DNA of 64,000 nucleotides, from positions 106,950 through 170,949 of the forward strand of contig NZ_LGAA01000006.1 in assembly GCF_001294465.1 (NCBI RefSeq), given 5' to 3'. A program made the translations under genes and the position numbers. This stretch comes from Moellerella wisconsensis ATCC 35017. Lineage in GTDB: Bacteria; Pseudomonadota; Gammaproteobacteria; Enterobacterales; Enterobacteriaceae. Positions 608 to 14,727 of the stretch are shown here, piece by piece. Within the stretch, counting starts at the first letter, position 1. Each line of letters starts with the position of its first letter. Under the pieces are notes generated by a model. That model had not been told where the DNA came from and did not search any database. It saw only the letters and a list, made by a program, of their open reading frames with translations.

Positions 608-1467
608 TTAATTTCATCTCTAATTATAGTCAGTAAAAACATTTTAATTACCCCACTAGTAATTCATTTGTATTGTTAGTTTTTCTGGCTGTGCTTCGGC
701 ACAGCCTTATACCTATTTAATACAAATAATACTCTATTTAATTATTTCAATTAAAATCGCTATCCTAATCCCCGAAAATAAAACTTCAATTAATTGAAAA
801 CCAAAGGGAATAAATTTAAATATAAAATACATATACAGCAAAAACTTATATATTAAATTAACATGAAATATGCATGAAATAAAAAATAAAATATTAAACT
901 CTTTGTATTACAATCCACTAATGAACTTTTAGCAAATTAAACGATCAACTAGGACAAAGTAGTTAATAATAACTATTTACCTTGCTAAAAAATCGGTATA
1001 TGCTTTCTTACATCAACCCACAAGAATAACCAAATAATCAATTACCCTTACAGATGAAACGGTGAAATAAAGGAAAAAATCAAAACCAGTATTAATATTT
1101 ACATTAAAATAAAGTTAATATTGAATATAAAGACAACAATTTCACCAATCATTATTTTTATTATAAAAACGAGATAACTAAAACGTACTAAAATATAGAT
1201 TAATTAAACATATAATCCTACAAAACAGAATATTTATTGGAACAAGGAAAAATATGAATAAAAAATAAAACCACTCCTAATAACTCTATAGATCATAAAT
1301 GAAAAATGAGACATAGATAACACGTAAAATATAAATGATATAATAAATAATGTGATAGAAAACATAGAAGTTATCACACATATAGAAATCATAACTTATT
1401 TTTATATAGTTTATATAGTTTAATTAACGCAACAACCAACCATTAAAATATTAAAAAAAATATTTAA

Positions 1468-2283
1468 ATGGCTATTAAAATGAATAAGGATATTACAATG
1501 AATAAGGATATTACAATGAATAGAGATATTAAAATAAATAAAGTAAATATAGCCGTCATCTTAAGCACTCTCATTACGGCCCCTTTAGCTCACGCCGCAT
1601 TAGGCTTTGATAAATCACCCGACGTAGACCTACAAACAGTTACTATTAGCGTCGGTCCTTCAGAAGTAAATACGCCTAAGCACTTCGCTCCACTTGGCTC
1701 TCCCGGCATAGGCATCTCACTTTTAGCGGACGGAAAAAGAATTGCTTTTCAAGGATTAAGTCTTATCCCGAAAGATGATAATGGTATTCATGACTCTTCA
1801 TTAGTACCTCCTCACCATAAAAATATTGGTATCTACCGCTTTGGGCAAGTAACTGACGAAGACGTTTACTTTGGTGACTGGGCGTATCAAGAAGGTGAAG
1901 AACACTACCGTAATATATACTATGCAGGGCAACAGGTCTCTACTGACCTCCCTACAGAAGGCAGTGCCACCTATACTACCCAAGGGATTAGTGCGGGTTA
2001 CAGTGAAAATGGCTTAATCACCGGTGAGCTAATCGCAGATTTTGCTAGCAATACCTTAATCGGCGACTTAACCAATGCTGAATTAGCATTAAATATCAAG
2101 GCAGAGATAGCCAGTGATCAAGGTCATTTTAAAGGGGATGCAATTATGCAACACGATGCAATCACTCATAATGGCGAAACCACAGGGCACTTTTTTAATA
2201 GCCAAGGCAGCTCCCTTGCCGGTATAGCGACTTTTGATAGTGCCCGAGAGTATGATTCAAGTTTCTCTGGGAAGAAACAATAA
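1468..2283 (+). CDS. Secreted hemophilin/HphA-like protein with a TbpB-handle-like C-terminal beta-barrel (copy 1). Probable type XI (Slam) secretion substrate. The true start is probably the ATG at 1498 or 1516.
   Basis: There is a signal peptide with an AHA/A signal peptidase I site and no lipobox Cys. The C-terminus ...GHFFNSQGSSLAGIATFDSAREYDSSFSGKKQ matches the characteristic TbpB/HpuA/fHbp/hemophilin C-terminal barrel ending (GxFYG...AGxF.A.KQ). It is a paralog of 6556..7329. Four in-frame ATGs lie inside an 18-bp tandem repeat at 1480..1533; each repeat unit carries its own AAGGA Shine-Dalgarno. Confidence 0.6.
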   Translation: MAIKMNKDITMNKDITMNRDIKINKVNIAVILSTLITAPLAHAALGFDKSPDVDLQTVTISVGPSEVNTPKHFAPLGSPGIGISLLADGKRIAFQGLSLIPKDDNGIHDSSLVPPHHKNIGIYRFGQVTDEDVYFGDWAYQEGEEHYRNIYYAGQQVSTDLPTEGSATYTTQGISAGYSENGLITGELIADFASNTLIGDLTNAELALNIKAEIASDQGHFKGDAIMQHDAITHNGETTGHFFNSQGSSLAGIATFDSAREYDSSFSGKKQ

Positions 2284-2490
2284 TCTCATTTTAAATAATC
2301 TAACTTTATATATTCAGTATCGAATTATTCGAGTAGTTTGAGTGGTTCGAATAATTCGAGTAGTTAACTGAGTTAATGGTGAAAAAAACAATTATATGGT
2401 AGTTGTACTATAATTATAATTTGACTTACTAAATTGCAAATAAATATTGAAACCAATAAGCCAATATATTCTGAGAAATGATTTATCTCA

Positions 2491-2518
2491 ACACCGGTTA
2501 TTCCTCCGGTGTTTTTTC
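2491..2518 (+). terminator. Rho-independent terminator-like hairpin (ACACCGG-ttattcct-CCGGTGT followed by TTTTTT) downstream of hemophilin-like gene 1.
   Basis: A GC-rich inverted repeat is followed immediately by a T6 run. Confidence 0.5.
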
Positions 2519-2638
2519 ATTTTATTTTTATGTTCAATAAATATCTCCTCAGCAATAATTTCAAATTCAAGAATATTTACTCTTTACACCGTACTAAAAA
2601 ATTGATTAAACTCCGCAACTTAATTAATACCTTAACTT

Positions 2639-2830
2639 ATGCATAAACCAACACACAGCCATGATGAAAAGGATTTTCAAATGCCTGAATTAAATTCAAG
2701 ATACAATTTGAATGCTATTAATTCCTTAAGCCAAATATTTACCCCTCTATTATCTACAATCGATATTCCTGCATCCTATTTTTATTTAACTGATCAAATA
2801 GGCCAATACTTTAATAAAAAAACAATATAG
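2639..2830 (+). pseudogene. Decayed remnant of a Slam/DUF560 (type XI secretion) gene.
   Basis: This 63-aa ORF contains SHDEKDFQ, which matches SHNEKDFQ at the N-terminus of the intact 454-aa Slam-like protein (7535..8899). Weaker similarity follows. It occupies the position between the hemophilin-like gene and the next receptor where an intact Slam sits in the second copy. Confidence 0.45.
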
Positions 2831-3006: not shown

Positions 3007-6000
3007 ATGTCTCAACTTTGTACCCGTTATTCTAATCTGGCAATTTCGATTTCCTTATTACTCACATCAGCGCTTTATGCCTATGCTACGGCAATAGTCC
3101 AACAATCTAAAACATCTATTGGCAATATTACTATTAAAGAAATAACCACAGATGAAAACTCTGCAGCTGACCAGATTTACGATAAAGATATATCTAATAG
3201 CTACATTGGAAAAACACAGATTGAACGATTTAAAGGAACTTCCCCCGGTGATATCTTTAAAGGAACAGTCGGTGTTTTCAGCGGTGAGACCCGTAATGGG
3301 GGAGCGATTGATCCTAATATTCGAGGAGTTCAAGGGCAAGGCCGTATCCCCGTCACCATCGATGGAACAGAGCAAGCCATTACCGCTTATCGAGGCTATT
3401 ATGGCGCGAATAACCGTAATTACCTCGACCCAAATATTATTCGCAGTGTAGATATAGAAAAAGGCCCCTCATTATCACAAAATATGCGCAGCTCTATCGG
3501 TGGTGGTATCGCTATAAAAACTATTAATATCAATGATGTGGTTAAACCTGATGATAACTTTGGTATTAATGTAAAAACTGAAGTAGGCAATAATGCCATT
3601 AAACCCAGATTAGCCAAGCTGATTTATGGCGAAGATTATCGAGATACTACTCACGATTTATTCGATCGCTATACTTTTAATGATAAAGATATCAATATCC
3701 GCACCCACAATAGAAATGAACATGTTTTACACGGGATCAATAGCTATTCCTATCGTGTTGCCGTCGGTTTTCGTCAAGAATTATTTGATTTTATGCTCGC
3801 CTATAGCCATCGAACTAACGGTAACTTTGCTAGTGGTCACCGTGGTGCAAAGGGATATAGCGCCCCTTTTACTGAGCAAGATAGAGACAGTTATAGTGGA
3901 AAATTAGGACCAGATTCGGCTAAATATCATCCCGATCCTTTTTTACCCTTTGCCGCCAATGTTTATCAGCCCGGTCATGAAGTCTTAAATACCTCCAATA
4001 CTGCCGATACATTATTAATAAAACATAATTGGCGTATTAGTGATCAGCAACAATTAAACTTCACACTACGAAAAACTCAGCTCTATTTTGGCGATATAAT
4101 GCCTTCTCGACTCGCAAATTTCGCGCCCGAAAATGGCTTGCTACCACAATGGCCTGAAGGTCAAGTCGTACAGCAAGCCGGCAGTATTAATCATAAGATT
4201 CGTTCAGAAAAATATTCGGCTTTAAATCTTCACAGCAGCATCTGGTTTGATAATACGGATAGCAAAATTAATACCGCAGGTGGATTTCCTCGTTACCCGA
4301 CAGAAGTTGACTTTATGCATCAAATTCAAGGTATCAAAAATCCACATAAAGATGGCAGTTTAATTGATAGCGTAAGTAATCATACGCATAATAATCGTTG
4401 GGGAATTGACCTAAAAAATGACTTTCGCCTAACTCGTCACAACTTACTTACCCTGTCTGCGCGTTTTCAACATGAAAAAATGACTAATGTGAATCCCTAT
4501 AATAGCGGCTATGCCGTGAATACCTTTTGGCCTCCACGCGAAGGACGACGCCAAGAATATCATCTCGGGATTAATTATGCGTGGACACCACTAGAACGCC
4601 TCACTCTTAATGCCGGTATTCAATATAATGCGTATTGGTCAATCGATGATTTCATCAATAAACGCCGAGCAGCAGCAGACACGCAAGTAACTCCAAGCCC
4701 TGAGCGAATATCTTTATCCAGTAAATATCAGCGATTATTCACCCCACAAGAAAGTGAAATTTACCAACGCTATCAGCAACTACAAAAACAAAACTTATCA
4801 TTATTTGGGCAAGTACGGCAGCAGCAAGCTAAATTACGCGCTGAAAAGCGAAGCGCGACCACCGAAGAACAACATGCAATAAAAGCCATAAAACAACAGC
4901 AGCAACAAATATCACAAGAAACCAATAACCTGCAAAAACAATACAGTTATATAAATAAATCCGTGCAAGATAAAGCAACAGGACTGAACTATCACAATAT
5001 CAATTTTATTCAGCTAGTCGATGAACTTACCGGCCAACTGAATAAACAGGACAATCCTTTTTATACCGGTGAAATTGATATTAATCAGCAGCAATATGAT
5101 CCGATTAGCCAGCAGAATATCGATATTTATAAAGTGGCTGCATCAGCCCATCAAGGCAAACCTCTATTAGACTTTACCCATAAACGCGGAATTATAAACC
5201 CTAAAAAACCCCTCCCCAAACGCACTGCATGGGATTGGGCACCGGTACTTTCAGCCTCTTTAGATCTGACCGACGACTGGCGTATGTATCTGCGTTATGC
5301 AGAAACTATTCGTATGCCATCTCTGTATGAGGATACCGGTAATATAGCTGGCCAGCGCTACCATAAACCTAAAAATCAATTTAAGCCCGAACGTTCAAAA
5401 ACAGTAGAAATAGGCAGCGTCTATAATTTATCGCAGCTATTAAAAACTCAACATCATGCTGATATTAAATTAACTTATTATGATATGCAGATAGAAAATG
5501 TGTTCGAAAGAAATTATTTATCTCAAACTATTCAAATGGATAAACAACTAATATCAGGTATCGAATTACAAGCACGCTATGATAATGGATTATTTTTCAG
5601 CGATGTTAGCGCCAGTTATAATTTAAAAACAAAAGTCTGTGATGAAGATTCCTACATCGCAATTAATATGTTTAATAAATTACCTATCCCAAACTGTATT
5701 GATGGCGGTTATCCTGCTGGTTTTTTACGCACATCGACGCCCCCAAAATATTCACTTTATGCCAATATTGGTCTGCGCTTATTCGATGAAAAATTAACGC
5801 TCGGTAACCGATTTATCTATCACAGCAAAGTGATCAATAAAGATGAAGCCGATTTACAAAAACGCTTACCCAGCGCCTTTGCTGGCTTTAGTAATAATCC
5901 TCTACGCTGGAATCCCATATTTACTGTCGATGCCTATATGAGTTATCAGATAACTGCAGATACATCAGTAGAATTAGTAGGAAGTAATATGTTAGATGAA

Positions 6001-6081
6001 TATTATCTTGATCCATTAACTCGCTCGATGATGCCAGCACCGGGGCGAACGTTTAAATTATCGCTAAGCAGCCAATTCTAG
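3007..6081 (+). CDS. TonB-dependent outer-membrane receptor (1024 aa), likely a heme/hemophilin receptor (HphR/HpuB-like). It carries an unusual Q/K-rich predicted coiled-coil insertion.
   Basis: It has a signal peptide and an N-terminal plug region (GETRNGGAIDPNIRGVQGQGRIPVTIDGTEQA). The barrel is long and has the C-terminal ...GRTFKLSLSSQF with terminal F. The gene lies immediately upstream of a hemophilin-like gene, Slam and TonB. Confidence 0.85.
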   Translation: MSQLCTRYSNLAISISLLLTSALYAYATAIVQQSKTSIGNITIKEITTDENSAADQIYDKDISNSYIGKTQIERFKGTSPGDIFKGTVGVFSGETRNGGAIDPNIRGVQGQGRIPVTIDGTEQAITAYRGYYGANNRNYLDPNIIRSVDIEKGPSLSQNMRSSIGGGIAIKTININDVVKPDDNFGINVKTEVGNNAIKPRLAKLIYGEDYRDTTHDLFDRYTFNDKDINIRTHNRNEHVLHGINSYSYRVAVGFRQELFDFMLAYSHRTNGNFASGHRGAKGYSAPFTEQDRDSYSGKLGPDSAKYHPDPFLPFAANVYQPGHEVLNTSNTADTLLIKHNWRISDQQQLNFTLRKTQLYFGDIMPSRLANFAPENGLLPQWPEGQVVQQAGSINHKIRSEKYSALNLHSSIWFDNTDSKINTAGGFPRYPTEVDFMHQIQGIKNPHKDGSLIDSVSNHTHNNRWGIDLKNDFRLTRHNLLTLSARFQHEKMTNVNPYNSGYAVNTFWPPREGRRQEYHLGINYAWTPLERLTLNAGIQYNAYWSIDDFINKRRAAADTQVTPSPERISLSSKYQRLFTPQESEIYQRYQQLQKQNLSLFGQVRQQQAKLRAEKRSATTEEQHAIKAIKQQQQQISQETNNLQKQYSYINKSVQDKATGLNYHNINFIQLVDELTGQLNKQDNPFYTGEIDINQQQYDPISQQNIDIYKVAASAHQGKPLLDFTHKRGIINPKKPLPKRTAWDWAPVLSASLDLTDDWRMYLRYAETIRMPSLYEDTGNIAGQRYHKPKNQFKPERSKTVEIGSVYNLSQLLKTQHHADIKLTYYDMQIENVFERNYLSQTIQMDKQLISGIELQARYDNGLFFSDVSASYNLKTKVCDEDSYIAINMFNKLPIPNCIDGGYPAGFLRTSTPPKYSLYANIGLRLFDEKLTLGNRFIYHSKVINKDEADLQKRLPSAFAGFSNNPLRWNPIFTVDAYMSYQITADTSVELVGSNMLDEYYLDPLTRSMMPAPGRTFKLSLSSQF

Positions 6082-6555
6082 GACGATTAATTTGAGTGAT
6101 CCTTTGGCTGCCTATTAATATAGCCAAAGGATCCCCTTTATAATCCAGTATATTTGTAAGGAATTACTTTAATTTATTAATATCAAACAATAACCATAAT
6201 AATAAGATAAATTTAAAAATTTGAAAAAAACATTTATAAAACCAATTACATTATCAATTAAAAATAAAATCCAAAAAACACATTAGAATAAAATTAAAAT
6301 ACAGGTAAATAAATTAACTCATTGAATAAAAAAACAATTATTAAAATTAAAACAGATAAATTTGTTGGAAAATTAATAATATTAAAAATTATCGTTTACC
6401 CGATTAAAAAGCTAGTATATGCTCATCTTATTCCCAAACAACCTCCTGTTATATCGAGTGATTAGATTGAATGATAGGGTGTAAAACCACTAAAAATTAA
6501 TATAATCACATTTGCGCGTTTCTAATTAATATTAAATTTCAATAAGGATATTGAA

Positions 6556-7329
6556 GTGAAATTATTAAAATCTATTGTTATATTAAGTACTGTTTGTTGT
6601 GCGAATTTAGCTTATGCAGATTTAGGATTTAATAAATCAGCCGATCTAGATGACCAATTAGTATTTATTAATATCGGTCCCTCAGAAAGTTCCTCATGGG
6701 TTCATCCCGCAGCTTTAGGTTCCCCTGCGATTGGCGTCTCAGTAAAAAGTAATGGACTGAGAGTTGCCTTTAAAGGCCTGCTAAATTCACTGTTTTATAC
6801 CATGCCCACCGATAAACATGATATCTATGACAGCTCTCTTGTACGCCGCCCCGGGACTCATACTAATATTGGTGCCTATAGATTTTCTAAGCTAGATAAT
6901 GACGAAATTTACTACGGTGAATGGACATATCAATCTGAGGACGCCGACTACCGCAATGTTTATTATACCGGTAAAAATACTACGACTAATATGCCAACTG
7001 AAGGGATCGCTATCTATACCACTCAAGGGATAAGCTATAACAGTCACCAAGCGGGACCAGTTACAGGTCAGCTAACGGCAGACTTTGCCAAAAATACCTT
7101 ACATGGTGATTTAGCTAATAACGAATTATCCTTGAATATTGATGCCATTATTATTGATAGTAGCAATCAATTTTCTGGCAACACAATAATGACTCATAAT
7201 AATAATAACTATATTGGTAATTCAGAAGGTCATTTCTTTAATGATCAAGCTGATGCTTTAGCCGGTATTGCCACTTTTAAAGATAATAGCCAATATGACA
7301 CTAGCTTCGCGGGTAAAAAACAAGATTAA
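6556..7329 (+). CDS. Secreted hemophilin/HphA-like protein with a TbpB-handle-like C-terminal barrel (copy 2). It starts with GTG.
   Basis: AAGGA sits 8 nt upstream of the GTG. The signal peptide has an AYA/D cleavage site. The C-terminus ...GHFFNDQADALAGIATFKDNSQYDTSFAGKKQD matches the same family motif. Identity to 1468..2283 is roughly 40-45% by eye. Confidence 0.6.
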   Translation: MKLLKSIVILSTVCCANLAYADLGFNKSADLDDQLVFINIGPSESSSWVHPAALGSPAIGVSVKSNGLRVAFKGLLNSLFYTMPTDKHDIYDSSLVRRPGTHTNIGAYRFSKLDNDEIYYGEWTYQSEDADYRNVYYTGKNTTTNMPTEGIAIYTTQGISYNSHQAGPVTGQLTADFAKNTLHGDLANNELSLNIDAIIIDSSNQFSGNTIMTHNNNNYIGNSEGHFFNDQADALAGIATFKDNSQYDTSFAGKKQD

Positions 7330-7534: not shown

Positions 7535-8899
7535 ATGACTAAATTTAATCGATTAAAGTTGTTACTATTTACATTATTCTTAAATTCATTAAACTTGGCC
7601 TATAGCCATGAAGTAATTAACAGCCATAATGAAAAGGATTTTCAAGTGTCTGTATTTCAAGCCGTCAATCAAAAAAACTGGTCTGCTGTTAATGACTATT
7701 CTTCTGAAATTGAAAGAAATATTGGAACAGAGAATAGCCTTTATTATTTTTTACAGGGTATGCTAGCCTTTGAGAGAAAAAATAATTTAGAAGCTATTAA
7801 TTTACTAAATCGAGCAATTCATTATCAACCAGATTTTATTCGTGCTAAGTTAGAACTTATTACAATATATTTAAAAAACAAAAATCAAAATTTAGCAAAA
7901 GAATTAATAAATGAATTATTATCCCATCAAAATATACCGGAGAAAATTAAAGAAAGATTACGCTATTTATTAAACACTCCGGAATATAAGCATACTAATA
8001 CCCGTAATCCGTTTTCAGCTCAAATAGCTATCGGCTATCAATATCAAGATAATATCAACCAAACAGCTGATGGCGATTCAATATGTACAGAACAACATCT
8101 TACCTCTGGGATATGTTTACAGAAATGGACGGCAACAGAACAAGATTCAGCTCAAGGAGTTTTCTTACGAACTGAACTAAGCTATCAAAAAAATATTCAT
8201 CCTGCACATGTCTGGCTCAATCAACTTTCTATTAACCATAAACAATATGTTAATGAGCCACAATATAATGAGCTATCTACCCAGATATATTCACGTTACC
8301 AATACCAGCAGCCACGCTATCAACTGCATATCGGGCCTAAAATATATTATGAAAATAGTGGTATTACTGGACACAATTATGGTGTGGGGATCCGCTGGGG
8401 CGGAATATGGCAACCGAGCCAAGCAAGCCAATGGTTACTCATTGCAGGACAAGAAATAAAGCAGCTAAGCATCCCGAATAATCCATATGCTAACGGCTCA
8501 CATTTTTACCATCAGCTAATTATTACTCGGCCGCTGTTCTTTGGTGACTTTTTCCAACTGACTGAGTTTTCGCATCACTATCATCGAGATACCAGTAAGG
8601 ATCATCATCAAATTCAATTTATTACCGGCGTTGACTGGCAATCGATTCCTTACGTTGAACCTAATATTTCTGTCAGTGGGTATCAGCAAAAGTTCCAAAA
8701 CTTCAATACTATCTTACAAGCTAAGCGACGAGATCGCGGAGTTGGAGTCCACGTAAAGATTAAAACTAAACACTGGCAACTGGCGGGTTTTACACCGACA
8801 TTAGCATTTTCACATCATTACATAAAAAGTAATGTTGATTGGCTGTATAGCCATCGGCGGAATCATGTTCAGCTATTTTTTGAACGTCGATTTCAATAA
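7535..8899 (+). CDS. Slam-like (DUF560) outer-membrane protein, the type XI secretion system translocator.
   Basis: It has a signal peptide, then roughly 150 aa of TPR-like helical repeats, then a beta-rich region that starts IAIGYQYQDNINQ (the GY-x-x-N-x-N pattern typical of DUF560 barrel starts) with alternating aromatic residues to the C-terminus. The size of 454 aa fits. It is positioned between a putative substrate and TonB. Confidence 0.6.
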   Translation: MTKFNRLKLLLFTLFLNSLNLAYSHEVINSHNEKDFQVSVFQAVNQKNWSAVNDYSSEIERNIGTENSLYYFLQGMLAFERKNNLEAINLLNRAIHYQPDFIRAKLELITIYLKNKNQNLAKELINELLSHQNIPEKIKERLRYLLNTPEYKHTNTRNPFSAQIAIGYQYQDNINQTADGDSICTEQHLTSGICLQKWTATEQDSAQGVFLRTELSYQKNIHPAHVWLNQLSINHKQYVNEPQYNELSTQIYSRYQYQQPRYQLHIGPKIYYENSGITGHNYGVGIRWGGIWQPSQASQWLLIAGQEIKQLSIPNNPYANGSHFYHQLIITRPLFFGDFFQLTEFSHHYHRDTSKDHHQIQFITGVDWQSIPYVEPNISVSGYQQKFQNFNTILQAKRRDRGVGVHVKIKTKHWQLAGFTPTLAFSHHYIKSNVDWLYSHRRNHVQLFFERRFQ

Positions 8900-8969
8900 T
8901 TTATTCGGCCATGCTGATTAAACCCGTAAGAGTACTATACCGAAGGGTTCTATATCGAAGGATACTACA

Positions 8970-9749
8970 TTGAAAAATACTATATTGACGAATACTGACT
9001 TGAAAAAGGCTATGCTGCAATTTTGCACGCATCATTATATTAGCTCATCCTTTTTTTCGCCAAAATTACTGCTTTGGGGGCTACTTGCTATCACTCTGCA
9101 TATCACTATTTTTGGTGTTTTCTTCATTACCCCAACATCCAAGCGGATCGATTCCCCGATGCAACAAGGCATACAATCACCTATCACCTCTATCCTGTTG
9201 CTCGCACAATCGTTAGTGCCGATAGAAAAGGAGGTCACAGATATAGACATCTCTATTCCACTGTCTCCAGTAAATGGAACCTATAACTTCTCGCCCCAAA
9301 AAGCCGTGATAAAAAAGAAACTCGATGATAAAAAGAAACCCATAAAACAACCCAAAAAAATGACCCCAAAAAAGGATAGTAAACAACAACTGGCCGGTAG
9401 CAATGAAATCAGTACTATTAGCGGAAATACCATCCCGGGTAAAGAGAATATTCAGGGGCATCAAGGTTCAACAGCCAACAGCTATATTTCAAAATTAAAA
9501 AGTGAAATTGAGAAACATAAGCAATATCCAAGGAAAGCCAGAAGATTACGTTATCAAGGTAAGGTGATGATCGAGATGACGGTCGCTAATAATGGATCAT
9601 TATCGAATATAAACGTGGCTAAATCATCAGGCTATGAACTACTCGATAAAGCCGCTATCGATGCCGTCTATAAATATCGCTCGATTGGTGATAAACCTGC
9701 AGAGGTTAAAGATATCCTAAGCTTTAATATGGTATTTTCTTTAGATTGA
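8970..9749 (+). CDS. TonB-family energy transducer. The start may be the internal Met at about 9012.
   Basis: It has one N-terminal transmembrane helix and a Pro/Lys-rich linker (KKKLDDKKKPIKQPKKMTPKK). The C-terminal TonB_C domain is ...RYQGKVMIEMTVANNGSLSNINVAKSSGYELLDKAAIDAVYKYR. Confidence 0.75.
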   Translation: MKNTILTNTDLKKAMLQFCTHHYISSSFFSPKLLLWGLLAITLHITIFGVFFITPTSKRIDSPMQQGIQSPITSILLLAQSLVPIEKEVTDIDISIPLSPVNGTYNFSPQKAVIKKKLDDKKKPIKQPKKMTPKKDSKQQLAGSNEISTISGNTIPGKENIQGHQGSTANSYISKLKSEIEKHKQYPRKARRLRYQGKVMIEMTVANNGSLSNINVAKSSGYELLDKAAIDAVYKYRSIGDKPAEVKDILSFNMVFSLD

Positions 9750-14416: not shown

Positions 14417-14727
14417 AAAGCTGAAAAACTGTGTAAAAGAATGAAGATCTCTGGGTGATTTTACGCTATGATCCACGGTCATCTTGCTGATCAGAAGATC
14501 AGAATGTGGTAGATAACCTAGTGATAACTAGATCTAGATATATAGATAAAGAAATACACTAGATATAGAAATCAATAAGTCTATCGCTGAACAACATCAA
14601 AGGTTGCTTTCTGGTCTATGGCAAAAGATAAGCGCCTATTAGTTATTCTATAGTTAAATCTGTAGTTAAATCTGTAGTTAAATCCATAATCTTTGTTTTC
14701 ATTTATCTTGTTTTAGGGGAGTCCGAC

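What the first reader, a model, noticed from the sequence alone, without database searches (positions are those of the whole stretch)
1468..1533. 18-bp tandem repeat duplicating the SD-plus-start module at the 5' end of hemophilin-like gene 1
ATGAATAAGGATATTACA occurs twice (1480..1497 and 1498..1515), followed by a diverged third unit ATGAATAGAGATATTAAA. Each unit carries an AAGGA Shine-Dalgarno 7 nt before the next in-frame ATG, mirroring the AAGGAtattgaaGTG start context of copy 2. Slipped-strand changes in repeat number would keep the frame (18 nt is 6 codons) but change the number of start sites and the length of the signal-peptide n-region. This looks like a possible expression-tuning or contingency element on a surface or secreted nutrient-acquisition protein.
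Basis: seen in the sequence. Interest (0 to 1): 0.55.

Follow-up and report, generated by a model that had tools for sequence, protein, structure and literature searches.

The report
Repeated start-site module in hemophore gene
The 18-base piece holding the ribosome-binding site and start codon of a heme-scavenging protein gene in Moellerella wisconsensis has been copied head to tail; strains differ by whole units, but every strain keeps one good start and the same mature protein, so it looks like a tolerated polymorphism that may adjust expression slightly, not an on/off switch.

Summary
Window 1473-1541 is an 18-bp tandem array: two identical units (1480-1497, 1498-1515), a diverged third (1516-1533) and degenerate flanking units (1462-1479, 1534-1551). 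It is the best tandem repeat in the 64 kb window, and 0 of 500 shuffles reach its score. The gene is an HphA/hemophilin-type secreted hemophore of Moellerella wisconsensis, in a cluster TBDR-hphA1-TBDR-hphA2-Slam-TonB.

DNA from 15 other loci (about 10 lineages) gives six alleles. They differ by exact 18-bp steps at three different breakpoints, plus one 30-bp deletion that removes ATG1468. Copy number therefore varies between strains, always in frame.

Only the last ATG (1516), with UAAGGA 7 nt upstream, is present in all alleles. Alleles carry one or two such strong start modules. Alignment with the paralog hphA2 shows hphA1 gained two units. The ancestral start (now ATA1534) and its ribosome-binding site are now part of the signal-peptide coding sequence.

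Isolates with near-identical flanks (0-7 SNPs per 3.7 kb) always share an allele, and no allele has more than three core units. An on/off switch is impossible, because the array stays in frame and the signal peptide is cleaved. Best reading: a polymorphic tandem duplication of the translation-initiation region, near-neutral or mildly expression-tuning, not a contingency locus.

The parts
1317..1344 (+). Best sigma-70-like promoter candidate for hphA1: ATAACA, 16-nt spacer, TATAAT with TG before the -10 hexamer. Inferred only.
   Evidence: 10 of 12 matches, extended -10. Across strains the 1304-1404 stretch has 4 variable sites per 100 columns, against 19 per 100 just upstream.
1351..1378 (.). 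Palindrome TGTGATA-N14-TATCACA just downstream of the promoter candidate. Possibly an operator; the binding protein is unknown.
   Evidence: the only match in the window, with 0.01 expected by chance. Identical in all strains shown.
1401..1422 (+). 9-bp tandem repeat TTTATATAG, 2.4 copies here. All other lineages carry one more unit.
1462..1479 (+). Degenerate unit u0 (ATTTAAATGGCTATTAAA). It holds the first in-frame ATG (1468), which has no Shine-Dalgarno and directly follows a TAA stop. This ATG is deleted in strain L007 and is a breakpoint partner in allele C.
1480..1497 (+). Unit u1, ATGAATAAGGATATTACA. Its ATG has no Shine-Dalgarno and is mutated to ATA in clade II strains. Its AAGGA serves the next ATG.
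1498..1515 (+). Unit u2, identical to u1. ATG1498 has UAAGGA 7 nt upstream and is the start chosen by PGAP. This SD-ATG module is present only in alleles A and B.
1516..1533 (+). Unit u3, ATGAATAGAGATATTAAA. ATG1516 with UAAGGA 7 nt upstream is the only SD-equipped start present in all six alleles and is the most likely principal start. The rest of the unit is homologous to the ribosome-binding site and spacer of hphA2.
1534..1551 (+). Degenerate unit u4, ATAAATAAAGTAAATATA. ATA1534 aligns with the GTG start of hphA2, so this is the inferred ancestral start position. It now encodes part of the signal-peptide n-region.
1516..1596 (+). Minimal signal peptide MNRDIKINKVNIAVILSTLITAPLAHA. An AHA|A signal peptidase I site is predicted by inspection and there is no lipobox cysteine. 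The mature protein starts at 1597.
   Evidence: Solved hemophilin chains align only from query residue 50 onward.
1468..2283 (+). hphA1, longest ORF: a hemophilin/HphA-type, Slam-dependent hemophore.
   Evidence: Pfam HphA_N 2e-15 and HphA_C 1.3e-15. NF041636 4.5e-32. PDB 8gm3 Hemophilin 5.9e-31.
3007..6081 (+). TonB-dependent heme/hemoglobin-type receptor, the second of two. The first ends at 607.
6541..6558 (+). Single, unduplicated ribosome-binding-site plus start module of the paralog hphA2 (AATAAGGATATTGAA GTG).
6556..7329 (+). hphA2, the paralogous hemophore, with an ordinary 21-residue signal peptide.
7535..8899 (+). Slam / type XI secretion outer-membrane protein.
   Evidence: Pfam SlipAM 8.6e-26 and TPR_Slam.
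8970..9749 (+). TonB-family protein closing the cluster.
   Evidence: Pfam TonB_C 2.7e-16.

Best explanation
The array is a strain-polymorphic tandem duplication of the translation-initiation region of hphA1, covering the Shine-Dalgarno AAGGA, a 7-nt spacer, the ATG and the first two codons. hphA1 encodes a Sec-exported, Slam-secreted hemophore of Moellerella wisconsensis.

Shown:
- The ancestral layout survives in the paralog hphA2 as one module. hphA1 has two extra 18-bp units.
- The former start is now ATA1534, and the former ribosome-binding site (now AGAGA) is translated as part of the signal-peptide n-region.
- Units are gained or lost in exact 18-bp steps between the short direct repeats they themselves create. 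Different lineages have different breakpoints.
- In every allele the 3'-most ATG (window 1516) keeps a strong UAAGGA 7 nt upstream. Alleles A and B have a second such module (ATG1498); alleles C to F have only one.

Inferred:
- Translation starts mainly at ATG1516, and in the window strain also at ATG1498.
- Each extra unit adds six charge-neutral residues (MNKDIT) to the n-region. Signal peptidase I removes them at AHA|A, so the secreted hemophore is the same in all alleles.
- The array arose by slipped-strand mispairing at the TATTAAA/TATTACA direct repeats.
- Once redundant, start modules decay or are deleted under the sole constraint that one SD-ATG remains.
- The effect on the cell is nil or a modest change in initiation rate. 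It is not an on/off or rapidly reversible switch.
For: - Repeat: real and non-random.
- Gene identity and cluster.
- Organism.
- Alleles: six among 16 loci, with exact 18-bp differences at three breakpoints plus a 30-bp deletion that removes ATG1468.
- Indel clustering: every indel longer than 2 bp in the 3.7 kb alignment lies in window 1400-1530.
- Start sites: the anti-SD duplex is -6.0 kcal/mol only for ATGs preceded by UAAGGA. The last ATG has it in all alleles. ATG1468 and ATG1480 have +1.7 and -1.5 kcal/mol.
- Dispensable upstream ATGs: ATG1480 is ATA in clade II, and ATG1468 is deleted in L007.
- Origin: the DNA alignment with hphA2 shows a 35-nt (about two-unit) insertion in hphA1, with GTG6556 opposite ATA1534. 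The protein alignment shows MNRDIK as a six-residue N-terminal extension.
- No RNA element: the fold is not better than shuffles, z = -0.27, and there is no Rfam match.
- Stability: isolates separated by 0-7 SNPs per 3.7 kb always share an allele.
- Specificity: homologs in other genera have ordinary short signal peptides and no such repeat.
Against: - No transcription start, translation start or expression data exist, so which ATG is used and how large any quantitative effect is remain inferred.
- In the A and B lineages both SD-ATG pairs are intact. The only degraded AAGGA is the one before the non-start ATA. That pattern would also fit selection to keep two working starts.
- Alleles differ between fairly close relatives (3-6 SNPs per 940 nt of gene body), so the array changes faster than ordinary sequence.
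- The direction of change is uncertain. Allele B can be derived from E by a simple 18-bp duplication, so gains are not excluded.
- Recombination (mosaic L015) blurs the tree.
- Only about 10 lineages were sampled, and no read-level data were available.
Confidence: 0.6

Rival explanations
1. Translational volume control. The number of tandem SD-AUG modules (one or two strong ones, plus weak upstream AUGs) sets how many ribosomes load on the hphA1 mRNA. It may also affect how well the longer n-region engages Sec. Unit gain and loss would then give heritable steps in hemophore output, and selection would maintain the polymorphism.
For: Alleles differ exactly in the number of strong modules, two in A and B and one in C to F. 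Every AAGGA that precedes an ATG is intact, while the one that precedes ATA has decayed. The array and its surroundings are an indel hot spot compared with the rest of the locus. The leader is unstructured, so Shine-Dalgarno strength should dominate initiation.
Against: There are no expression data. Only two states were seen, and no allele has more than three units. Near-clonal isolates do not differ. The paralog and the homologs in other genera work with a single module. A second in-frame start 18 nt upstream of an already strong one need not raise output.
Confidence: 0.25
2. A true contingency (phase-variable) locus. High-frequency reversible slippage of the 18-bp units within clonal populations would produce subpopulations with different HphA1 expression, as simple-sequence repeats do in heme receptors of Haemophilus and Neisseria.
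For: Copy number is polymorphic between strains, with at least three independent unit-length events. The gene belongs to a functional class, heme acquisition, in which phase variation is common (own knowledge).
Against: The unit is 18 nt long with only 2-3 copies. Changes keep the frame and the last SD-ATG, so there is no off state. Assemblies with 0-7 flanking SNPs always have the same allele. A rough count of about three events over a tree of roughly 100 or more SNPs per 3.7 kb implies a rate orders of magnitude below classical phase variation. This last point is an inference.
Confidence: 0.05
3. The repeats are iterated binding sites for a DNA- or RNA-binding regulator, such as Fur or a heme-responsive factor. 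Their resemblance to SD-ATG modules would then be incidental.
For: The period of 18 bp is close to the length of typical operator sites. Heme-uptake genes are usually iron-regulated (own knowledge). A separate unique palindrome lies 100 nt upstream.
Against: No 19-mer in 600-1600 comes closer than 6 mismatches to the Fur-box consensus, which is no better than shuffled sequence, and none lies in the array. The unit aligns base for base with the single ribosome-binding-site and start module of hphA2. Strains tolerate loss of a unit at any position.
Confidence: 0.05
4. The repeat is an assembly or sequencing artefact, or a chance repeat in AT-rich DNA.
For: The region is very AT-rich. One homopolymer nearby differs between two otherwise identical assemblies, A8 versus A7.
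Against: 0 of 500 shuffles reach the score. The same array appears in independent NCBI, ENA and Logan assemblies, including complete genomes. Differences between strains are exact unit lengths.
Confidence: 0.01

Closest known systems
In-frame variable-number tandem repeats (VNTRs / minisatellites) in bacterial surface- and secreted-protein genes
   Same: Head-to-tail units whose length is a multiple of three. Unit-length polymorphism between strains arises by slipped-strand mispairing or unequal recombination and leaves the frame intact.
   Different: Here the unit is not part of the mature protein. It is the ribosome-binding site plus start codon. Copy number therefore changes the number of initiation sites and the length of a cleaved signal-peptide n-region, not the product.
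Neisseria opa CTCTT repeats in the signal-peptide coding region (own knowledge)
   Same: A repeat tract inside the leader-peptide coding region of an exported protein, changing by slippage.
   Different: The opa units are 5 nt long and present in many copies, so they shift the frame and switch expression on and off at high frequency. Here 18-nt units in 2-3 copies never shift the frame.
Haemophilus influenzae hgp CCAA repeats, and Neisseria hpuA/hmbR poly-G tracts (own knowledge)
   Same: Repeat-mediated variation in heme or hemoglobin acquisition genes served by TonB-dependent receptors.
   Different: Those are frame-shifting simple-sequence repeats with on/off phase variation. They do not duplicate a start module.
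Expression-level ('volume control') repeats in 5' regions, such as Moraxella catarrhalis uspA2 AGAT repeats in the 5' UTR and H. influenzae hmw 7-bp promoter repeats (own knowledge)
   Same: Repeat number upstream of or at the start of a surface-protein gene changes its quantity, not its presence. This is the model for the tuning rival.
   Different: Those repeats are short, numerous and non-coding, and they carry no SD-AUG. No effect on expression has been shown here.
Hemophilin / HphA hemophores secreted by Slam (type XI secretion), e.g. A. baumannii HphA (PMC8560813; bioRxiv 10.1101/2023.03.15.532718)
   Same: The domain pair HphA_N plus HphA_C, a signal peptidase I-type signal peptide, and neighbouring Slam, TonB-dependent receptor and TonB genes.
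   Different: A term search of the hemophilin preprint found 'repeat' 0 times and 'start codon' 0 times. The homologs fetched here have ordinary short signal peptides.

Membership tests
Hemophilin/HphA, Slam (T11SS)-dependent hemophore (the gene that carries the repeat) | N-terminal heme-binding handle domain plus C-terminal 8-stranded barrel domain (Pfam HphA_N and HphA_C) | tested here: met
   PF22828 at 2e-15 and PF22829 at 1.3e-15, both above their cut-offs. NF041636 scores 111.5 bits against a cut-off of 80. PDB hemophilins match at up to 5.9e-31.
Hemophilin/HphA, Slam (T11SS)-dependent hemophore (the gene that carries the repeat) | A cognate Slam/DUF560 outer-membrane secretor and a TonB-dependent heme receptor encoded nearby | tested here: met
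   Slam at 7535-8899 (PF04575, 8.6e-26). TonB-dependent receptors ending at 607 and at 3007-6081. TonB at 8970-9749.
Hemophilin/HphA, Slam (T11SS)-dependent hemophore (the gene that carries the repeat) | Sec signal peptide cleaved by signal peptidase I (a soluble hemophore, not a lipoprotein) | tested here: met
   By inspection: a positively charged n-region, the hydrophobic stretch AVILSTLITAPL, the site AHA|A, and no cysteine at +1. No signal-peptide predictor was available.
Hemophilin/HphA, Slam (T11SS)-dependent hemophore (the gene that carries the repeat) | Binds heme and is secreted by its Slam | not testable with these tools
   Needs biochemistry.
Simple-sequence-repeat contingency (phase-variable) locus | A tract of many copies of a short unit (mono- to about heptanucleotide) | tested here: not met
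   The unit is 18 nt, with 2-3 core copies plus two degenerate ones.
Simple-sequence-repeat contingency (phase-variable) locus | A change in copy number switches the gene on or off, by frameshift or by changing promoter spacing | tested here: not met
   All six alleles stay in frame and keep the last SD-ATG.
Simple-sequence-repeat contingency (phase-variable) locus | High-frequency, reversible variation within a clonal population | tested here: inconclusive
   Pairs and groups of assemblies with 0-7 SNPs per 3.7 kb share the same allele. This argues against very high rates, but no read-level or culture data were available.
Simple-sequence-repeat contingency (phase-variable) locus | Repeat-number polymorphism between isolates | tested here: met
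   Six alleles, with three distinct 18-bp breakpoints.
In-frame VNTR / minisatellite | Head-to-tail units of at least about 10 bp, in multiples of 3, with unit-length polymorphism between strains | tested here: met
Extended signal peptide region (ESPR) of autotransporters and TPS proteins | A conserved N-terminal extension motif (Pfam ESPR) ahead of a normal signal peptide | tested here: not met
   The Pfam scan of the 271-aa ORF returns only HphA_N, HphA_C and TbpB_B_D. The extension here is made of repeated MNKDIT units.

The most novel reading that the evidence does not exclude
The array works as a heritable translational gain knob and is also the trace of a start-codon treadmill. Tandem duplication of the SD-AUG module adds working initiation sites that raise hemophore output in steps. 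Older downstream modules lose their SD and AUG and are absorbed into the signal-peptide n-region, so coding sequence is built from a former ribosome-binding site. Strains with one or two live modules would then differ in HphA1 dose and be selected in different hosts or niches.
Probability: 0.15. Interest if true: 0.55.

Novelty: new variant of a known kind. Interest (0 to 1): 0.3.

Why it matters
Three points follow.

1. Annotation. Three gene callers give this one gene three different starts, with products of 271/265, 261 and 255 aa. Comparing strains singles out ATG1516 as the only conserved SD-equipped start.

2. Evolution. The locus shows how a bacterial start codon can move upstream by tandem duplication of its own initiation region. 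The former ribosome-binding site becomes signal-peptide codons, and the redundant starts then decay.

3. Biology and typing. If the number of modules does change hemophore output, it would be a repeat-based expression polymorphism in an Enterobacterales heme-uptake system that works through translation initiation and not through frameshifting. If it does not, the array is still a convenient typing marker for M. wisconsensis lineages.

Tried and rejected
- Fur box. A scan of 600-1600 and the other intergenic regions with the 19-bp consensus found nothing closer than 5-6 mismatches, no better than shuffled sequence, and nothing in the array.
- Known RNA element. There is no Rfam match in 600-1700 at E <= 1.
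- RNA structure hiding the Shine-Dalgarno. The fold of 1440-1580 gives -13.7 kcal/mol, z = -0.27.
- More alleles from metagenomes. A 27-mer conserved in all alleles found nothing. A 21-mer found six unrelated chance hits.
- Species representatives. A single-protein scan of genome contigs found nothing. The alignment-based scan found only distant homologs, none with a repeat, and it did not return M. wisconsensis itself.
- Failed look-ups. DNA look-ups for P0006, P0015 and P0011 returned nothing, and the look-up cap left P0013 and P0014 unread.
- Literature. Searches for tandem duplicated SD or start modules found no comparable described case. The library is incomplete, so this is weak evidence of novelty.
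- ESPR-type extended signal peptide. Rejected, because there is no Pfam match.

Full report
**1. Observation**

The sequence at 1462-1551 reads:
- u0: ATTTAAATGGCTATTAAA, containing ATG1468, which directly follows an in-frame TAA
- u1: ATGAATAAGGATATTACA (1480-1497)
- u2: the same 18-mer (1498-1515)
- u3: ATGAATAGAGATATTAAA (1516-1533)
- u4: ATAAATAAAGTAAATATA (1534-1551)
- then GCC GTC ATC...

Tandem Repeats Finder reports 1473-1541, period 18, 3.8 copies, 88% matches, score 103. This is the top score among 50 rows for the 64 kb window. A simple tandem score gives 30, against 9.0 +/- 1.3 (maximum 15) in 500 dinucleotide-preserving shuffles of 608-1600, and nothing else in the window scores higher. 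AAGGA lies 7 nt before ATG1498 and before ATG1516. The start context of the paralog, AATAAGGATATTGAA-GTG, lies at 6541-6558.

**2. The gene and its setting**

The ORF 1468-2283 matches Pfam HphA_N and HphA_C. It also matches NCBIfam NF041636 'Slam-dependent' and solved hemophilin structures, with 8gm3 best at 5.9e-31. Around it lie:
- the end of a TonB-dependent receptor (to 607)
- a second heme-type TonB-dependent receptor (3007-6081)
- a paralogous hemophore, hphA2 (6556-7329)
- a Slam / type XI secretion outer-membrane protein (7535-8899)
- a TonB gene (8970-9749)

Published work describes hemophilin homologs as exported through Sec, cleaved by signal peptidase I and secreted by their cognate T11SS (PMC8560813 listed). 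The predicted signal peptide ends in APLAHA|ALGF with no lipobox cysteine. The organism is Moellerella wisconsensis. The window is identical to GCA_900706815.1 over this locus.

**3. Strain comparison, the decisive test**

The 90% cluster of this protein holds products of 249, 255, 261 and 265 residues whose N-termini differ in six-residue steps. I fetched DNA for 15 loci from NCBI, ENA and Logan assemblies. I then read the 5' region of each. There are six alleles:

| Allele | Loci | Structure |
|---|---|---|
| A | window, L001, L002 | u0 u1 u2 u3 u4 |
| B | L003-6, L010, L011, L015 | same length; u1 is ATAGATAAGGATATTACA, so its ATG is lost |
| C | L008, L009 | 18 bp missing across u0/u1 (ATGG^ATATTACA) |
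| D | L012, L013 | 18 bp missing across u2/u3, leaving the hybrid ATGAATAAGGATATTAAA |
| E | L014 | B without u2 |
| F | L007 | as D, plus a 30-bp deletion between ATTAAAAT direct repeats that removes ATG1468 and the A-tract |

The loci fall into two clades about 3% apart, and each clade holds three-unit and two-unit alleles. In a 3.7 kb alignment, every indel longer than 2 bp lies in window 1400-1530: the three 18-bp events, the 30-bp event, and a 9-bp unit of the TTTATATAG repeat. Copy number therefore does vary between isolates, always by whole in-frame units.

Assemblies that differ by only 0-7 SNPs per 3.7 kb always share an allele. These are window/L001/L002, L004/L005/L006, L008/L009, L010/L011 and L012/L013. 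The closest pairs with different alleles differ by 3-6 SNPs per 940 nt of gene body. No allele has more than three core units. Parsimony favours losses from a three-unit ancestor. However, B can be derived from E by a simple 18-bp duplication, and L015 is a recombinant mosaic, so the direction of change is not settled.

**4. Which start is used**

An anti-Shine-Dalgarno duplex calculation gives -6.0 kcal/mol, with 6-7 nt spacing, only for ATGs preceded by UAAGGA. ATG1468 gives +1.7 and ATG1480 gives -1.5. The 3'-most ATG (window 1516) has the strong site in all six alleles. ATG1498 has it only in A and B. ATG1480 is ATA in clade II, and ATG1468 is deleted in L007. Annotation pipelines disagree: 271/265 aa from ATG1468, 261 aa from ATG1498 (PGAP), and 255 aa from ATG1516. 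I infer that ATG1516 is the constant start and that ATG1498 is a second start in alleles A and B.

Each extra unit encodes MNKDIT, which carries one Lys and one Asp and so has no net charge. These residues lie upstream of the predicted cleavage site, so the mature protein is the same in all alleles.

**5. Origin**

When the hphA1 and hphA2 5' regions are aligned, hphA2 has a 35-nt gap opposite u1 and u2. Its ribosome-binding site and spacer, AATAAGGATATTGAA, lie opposite AATAGAGATATTAAA of u3, and its GTG start lies opposite ATA1534. The protein alignment shows MNRDIK as a six-residue N-terminal extension relative to three paralogs or homologs.

The ancestral start was therefore at 1534. Tandem duplication of the initiation region moved the start upstream, and the old SD (now AGAGA) and old start (now ATA) became signal-peptide codons. 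The 7-nt direct repeats TATTAAA/TATTACA, spaced 18 nt apart, provide the substrate for slippage.

Homologs from Xenorhabdus, Vibrio, Aggregatibacter, Psychrobacter and an uncultured Moellerella have ordinary short signal peptides and no such repeat. The array is specific to M. wisconsensis hphA1.

**6. Alternatives examined**

- The leader has no significant RNA structure (z = -0.27) and no Rfam match.
- No Fur-box-like site better than chance occurs in the array or its surroundings.
- The best promoter-like site is 1317-1344, with an extended -10. It is followed by a unique palindrome at 1351-1378, in a stretch conserved between strains.
- Artefact and chance are excluded by the shuffles and by the independent assemblies.

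**7. Interpretation**

The label 'contingency element' does not fit. The unit is long and present in few copies. The frame and one strong start are always kept. Near-clonal isolates agree. A rough count of about three events over a tree of roughly 100 or more SNPs per 3.7 kb implies a rate far below classical phase variation; this last point is an inference.

The best-supported account is a polymorphic tandem duplication of the translation-initiation region. It is tolerated because the added residues are charge-neutral and are cleaved off, and the redundant start modules decay or are deleted. A modest, stepwise effect on initiation (one versus two strong modules) remains possible and untested.

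**8. Comparison and novelty**

By behaviour the array is an in-frame VNTR. It resembles the opa, hgp and uspA2 repeats only in location or gene class (own knowledge) and fails the defining features of a contingency locus.

The unusual feature is the unit itself, an SD-plus-start module, together with the visible upstream migration of the start codon. Literature searches found no described equivalent, but the library is incomplete. I rate it a new variant of a known kind, of modest interest.

Noticed in passing
window 1401-1422: The 9-bp tandem repeat TTTATATAG has 2.4 copies in the window strain. Every other lineage has one more unit (TTTATATGA, TTTATATTA or TTTATATGG). It lies between the promoter candidate and the 18-bp array.
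   Followed up: partly
window 1317-1378: A promoter-like site with an extended -10 (1317-1344) is followed directly by a palindrome unique in the window, TGTGATA-N14-TATCACA (1351-1378). The stretch is conserved between strains although the 200 bp upstream are highly variable. It may be an operator for an unknown regulator.
   Followed up: partly
window 2284-2830: The region after hphA1 aligns with the region after hphA2 and with the first ~100 nt of slam, including a near-identical stretch CAGCCATRATGAAAAGGATTTTCAA. The 63-aa ORF at 2639-2830, which several assemblies call as a gene, matches Slam residues 25-56 (E = 3e-4). It looks like the remnant of a second slam left by a duplication of a TBDR-hphA-slam module.
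   Followed up: partly
window 8950-9007: A 30-bp tandem repeat (1.9 copies, 82% matches) lies at the 5' end of the tonB gene. The first unit carries GAAGGA 8 nt before TTG-AAA-AA. The second unit has the same layout with GACGAA in place of GAAGGA, and a partial third unit leads into ATG9014. This may be a second duplicated start module in the same cluster. It was not compared between strains.
   Followed up: no
window 14647-14684: A 12-bp tandem repeat TCTGTAGTTAAA (3.2 copies, 96% matches) lies about 45 nt upstream of the dnaA start (GTG14728). The heme cluster therefore sits next to the mnmE-yidC-dnaA region.
   Followed up: no
L015 (GCA_037198985.1) 1340-2440: This locus is a mosaic. Its 5' region carries the clade II allele B, but its hphA1 gene body is closer to clade I (9 SNPs from the window against 15-18 from clade II loci). 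This points to recombination inside the locus.
   Followed up: partly
P0015 (KLN98128.1), corresponds to window 1534: One deposited protein starts MNKVNIAVIL..., exactly at the position of ATA1534, the inferred ancestral start. Either that strain still has ATG there or the annotator accepted ATA as a start. Its DNA could not be retrieved.
   Followed up: partly
window 1452-1459 vs L002: The A-tract upstream of ATG1468 is A8 in the window and A7 in L002, which otherwise shows 0 SNPs. It is A7 in L012 and L013 as well, and AAACAAAAA in clade II. This is either homopolymer instability or a sequencing error.
   Followed up: no
window 1468-2283 and 6556-7329: RefSeq names both products 'Slam-dependent surface lipoprotein', but neither has a lipobox cysteine at the predicted cleavage site. 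They look like soluble hemophores cleaved by signal peptidase I.
   Followed up: partly
L004 (GCA_037198855.1) 3011-3786: The TonB-dependent receptor downstream of hphA1 is called as a 501-residue product in this assembly, against 1024 residues elsewhere. The gene may be truncated or frameshifted in that strain.
   Followed up: no
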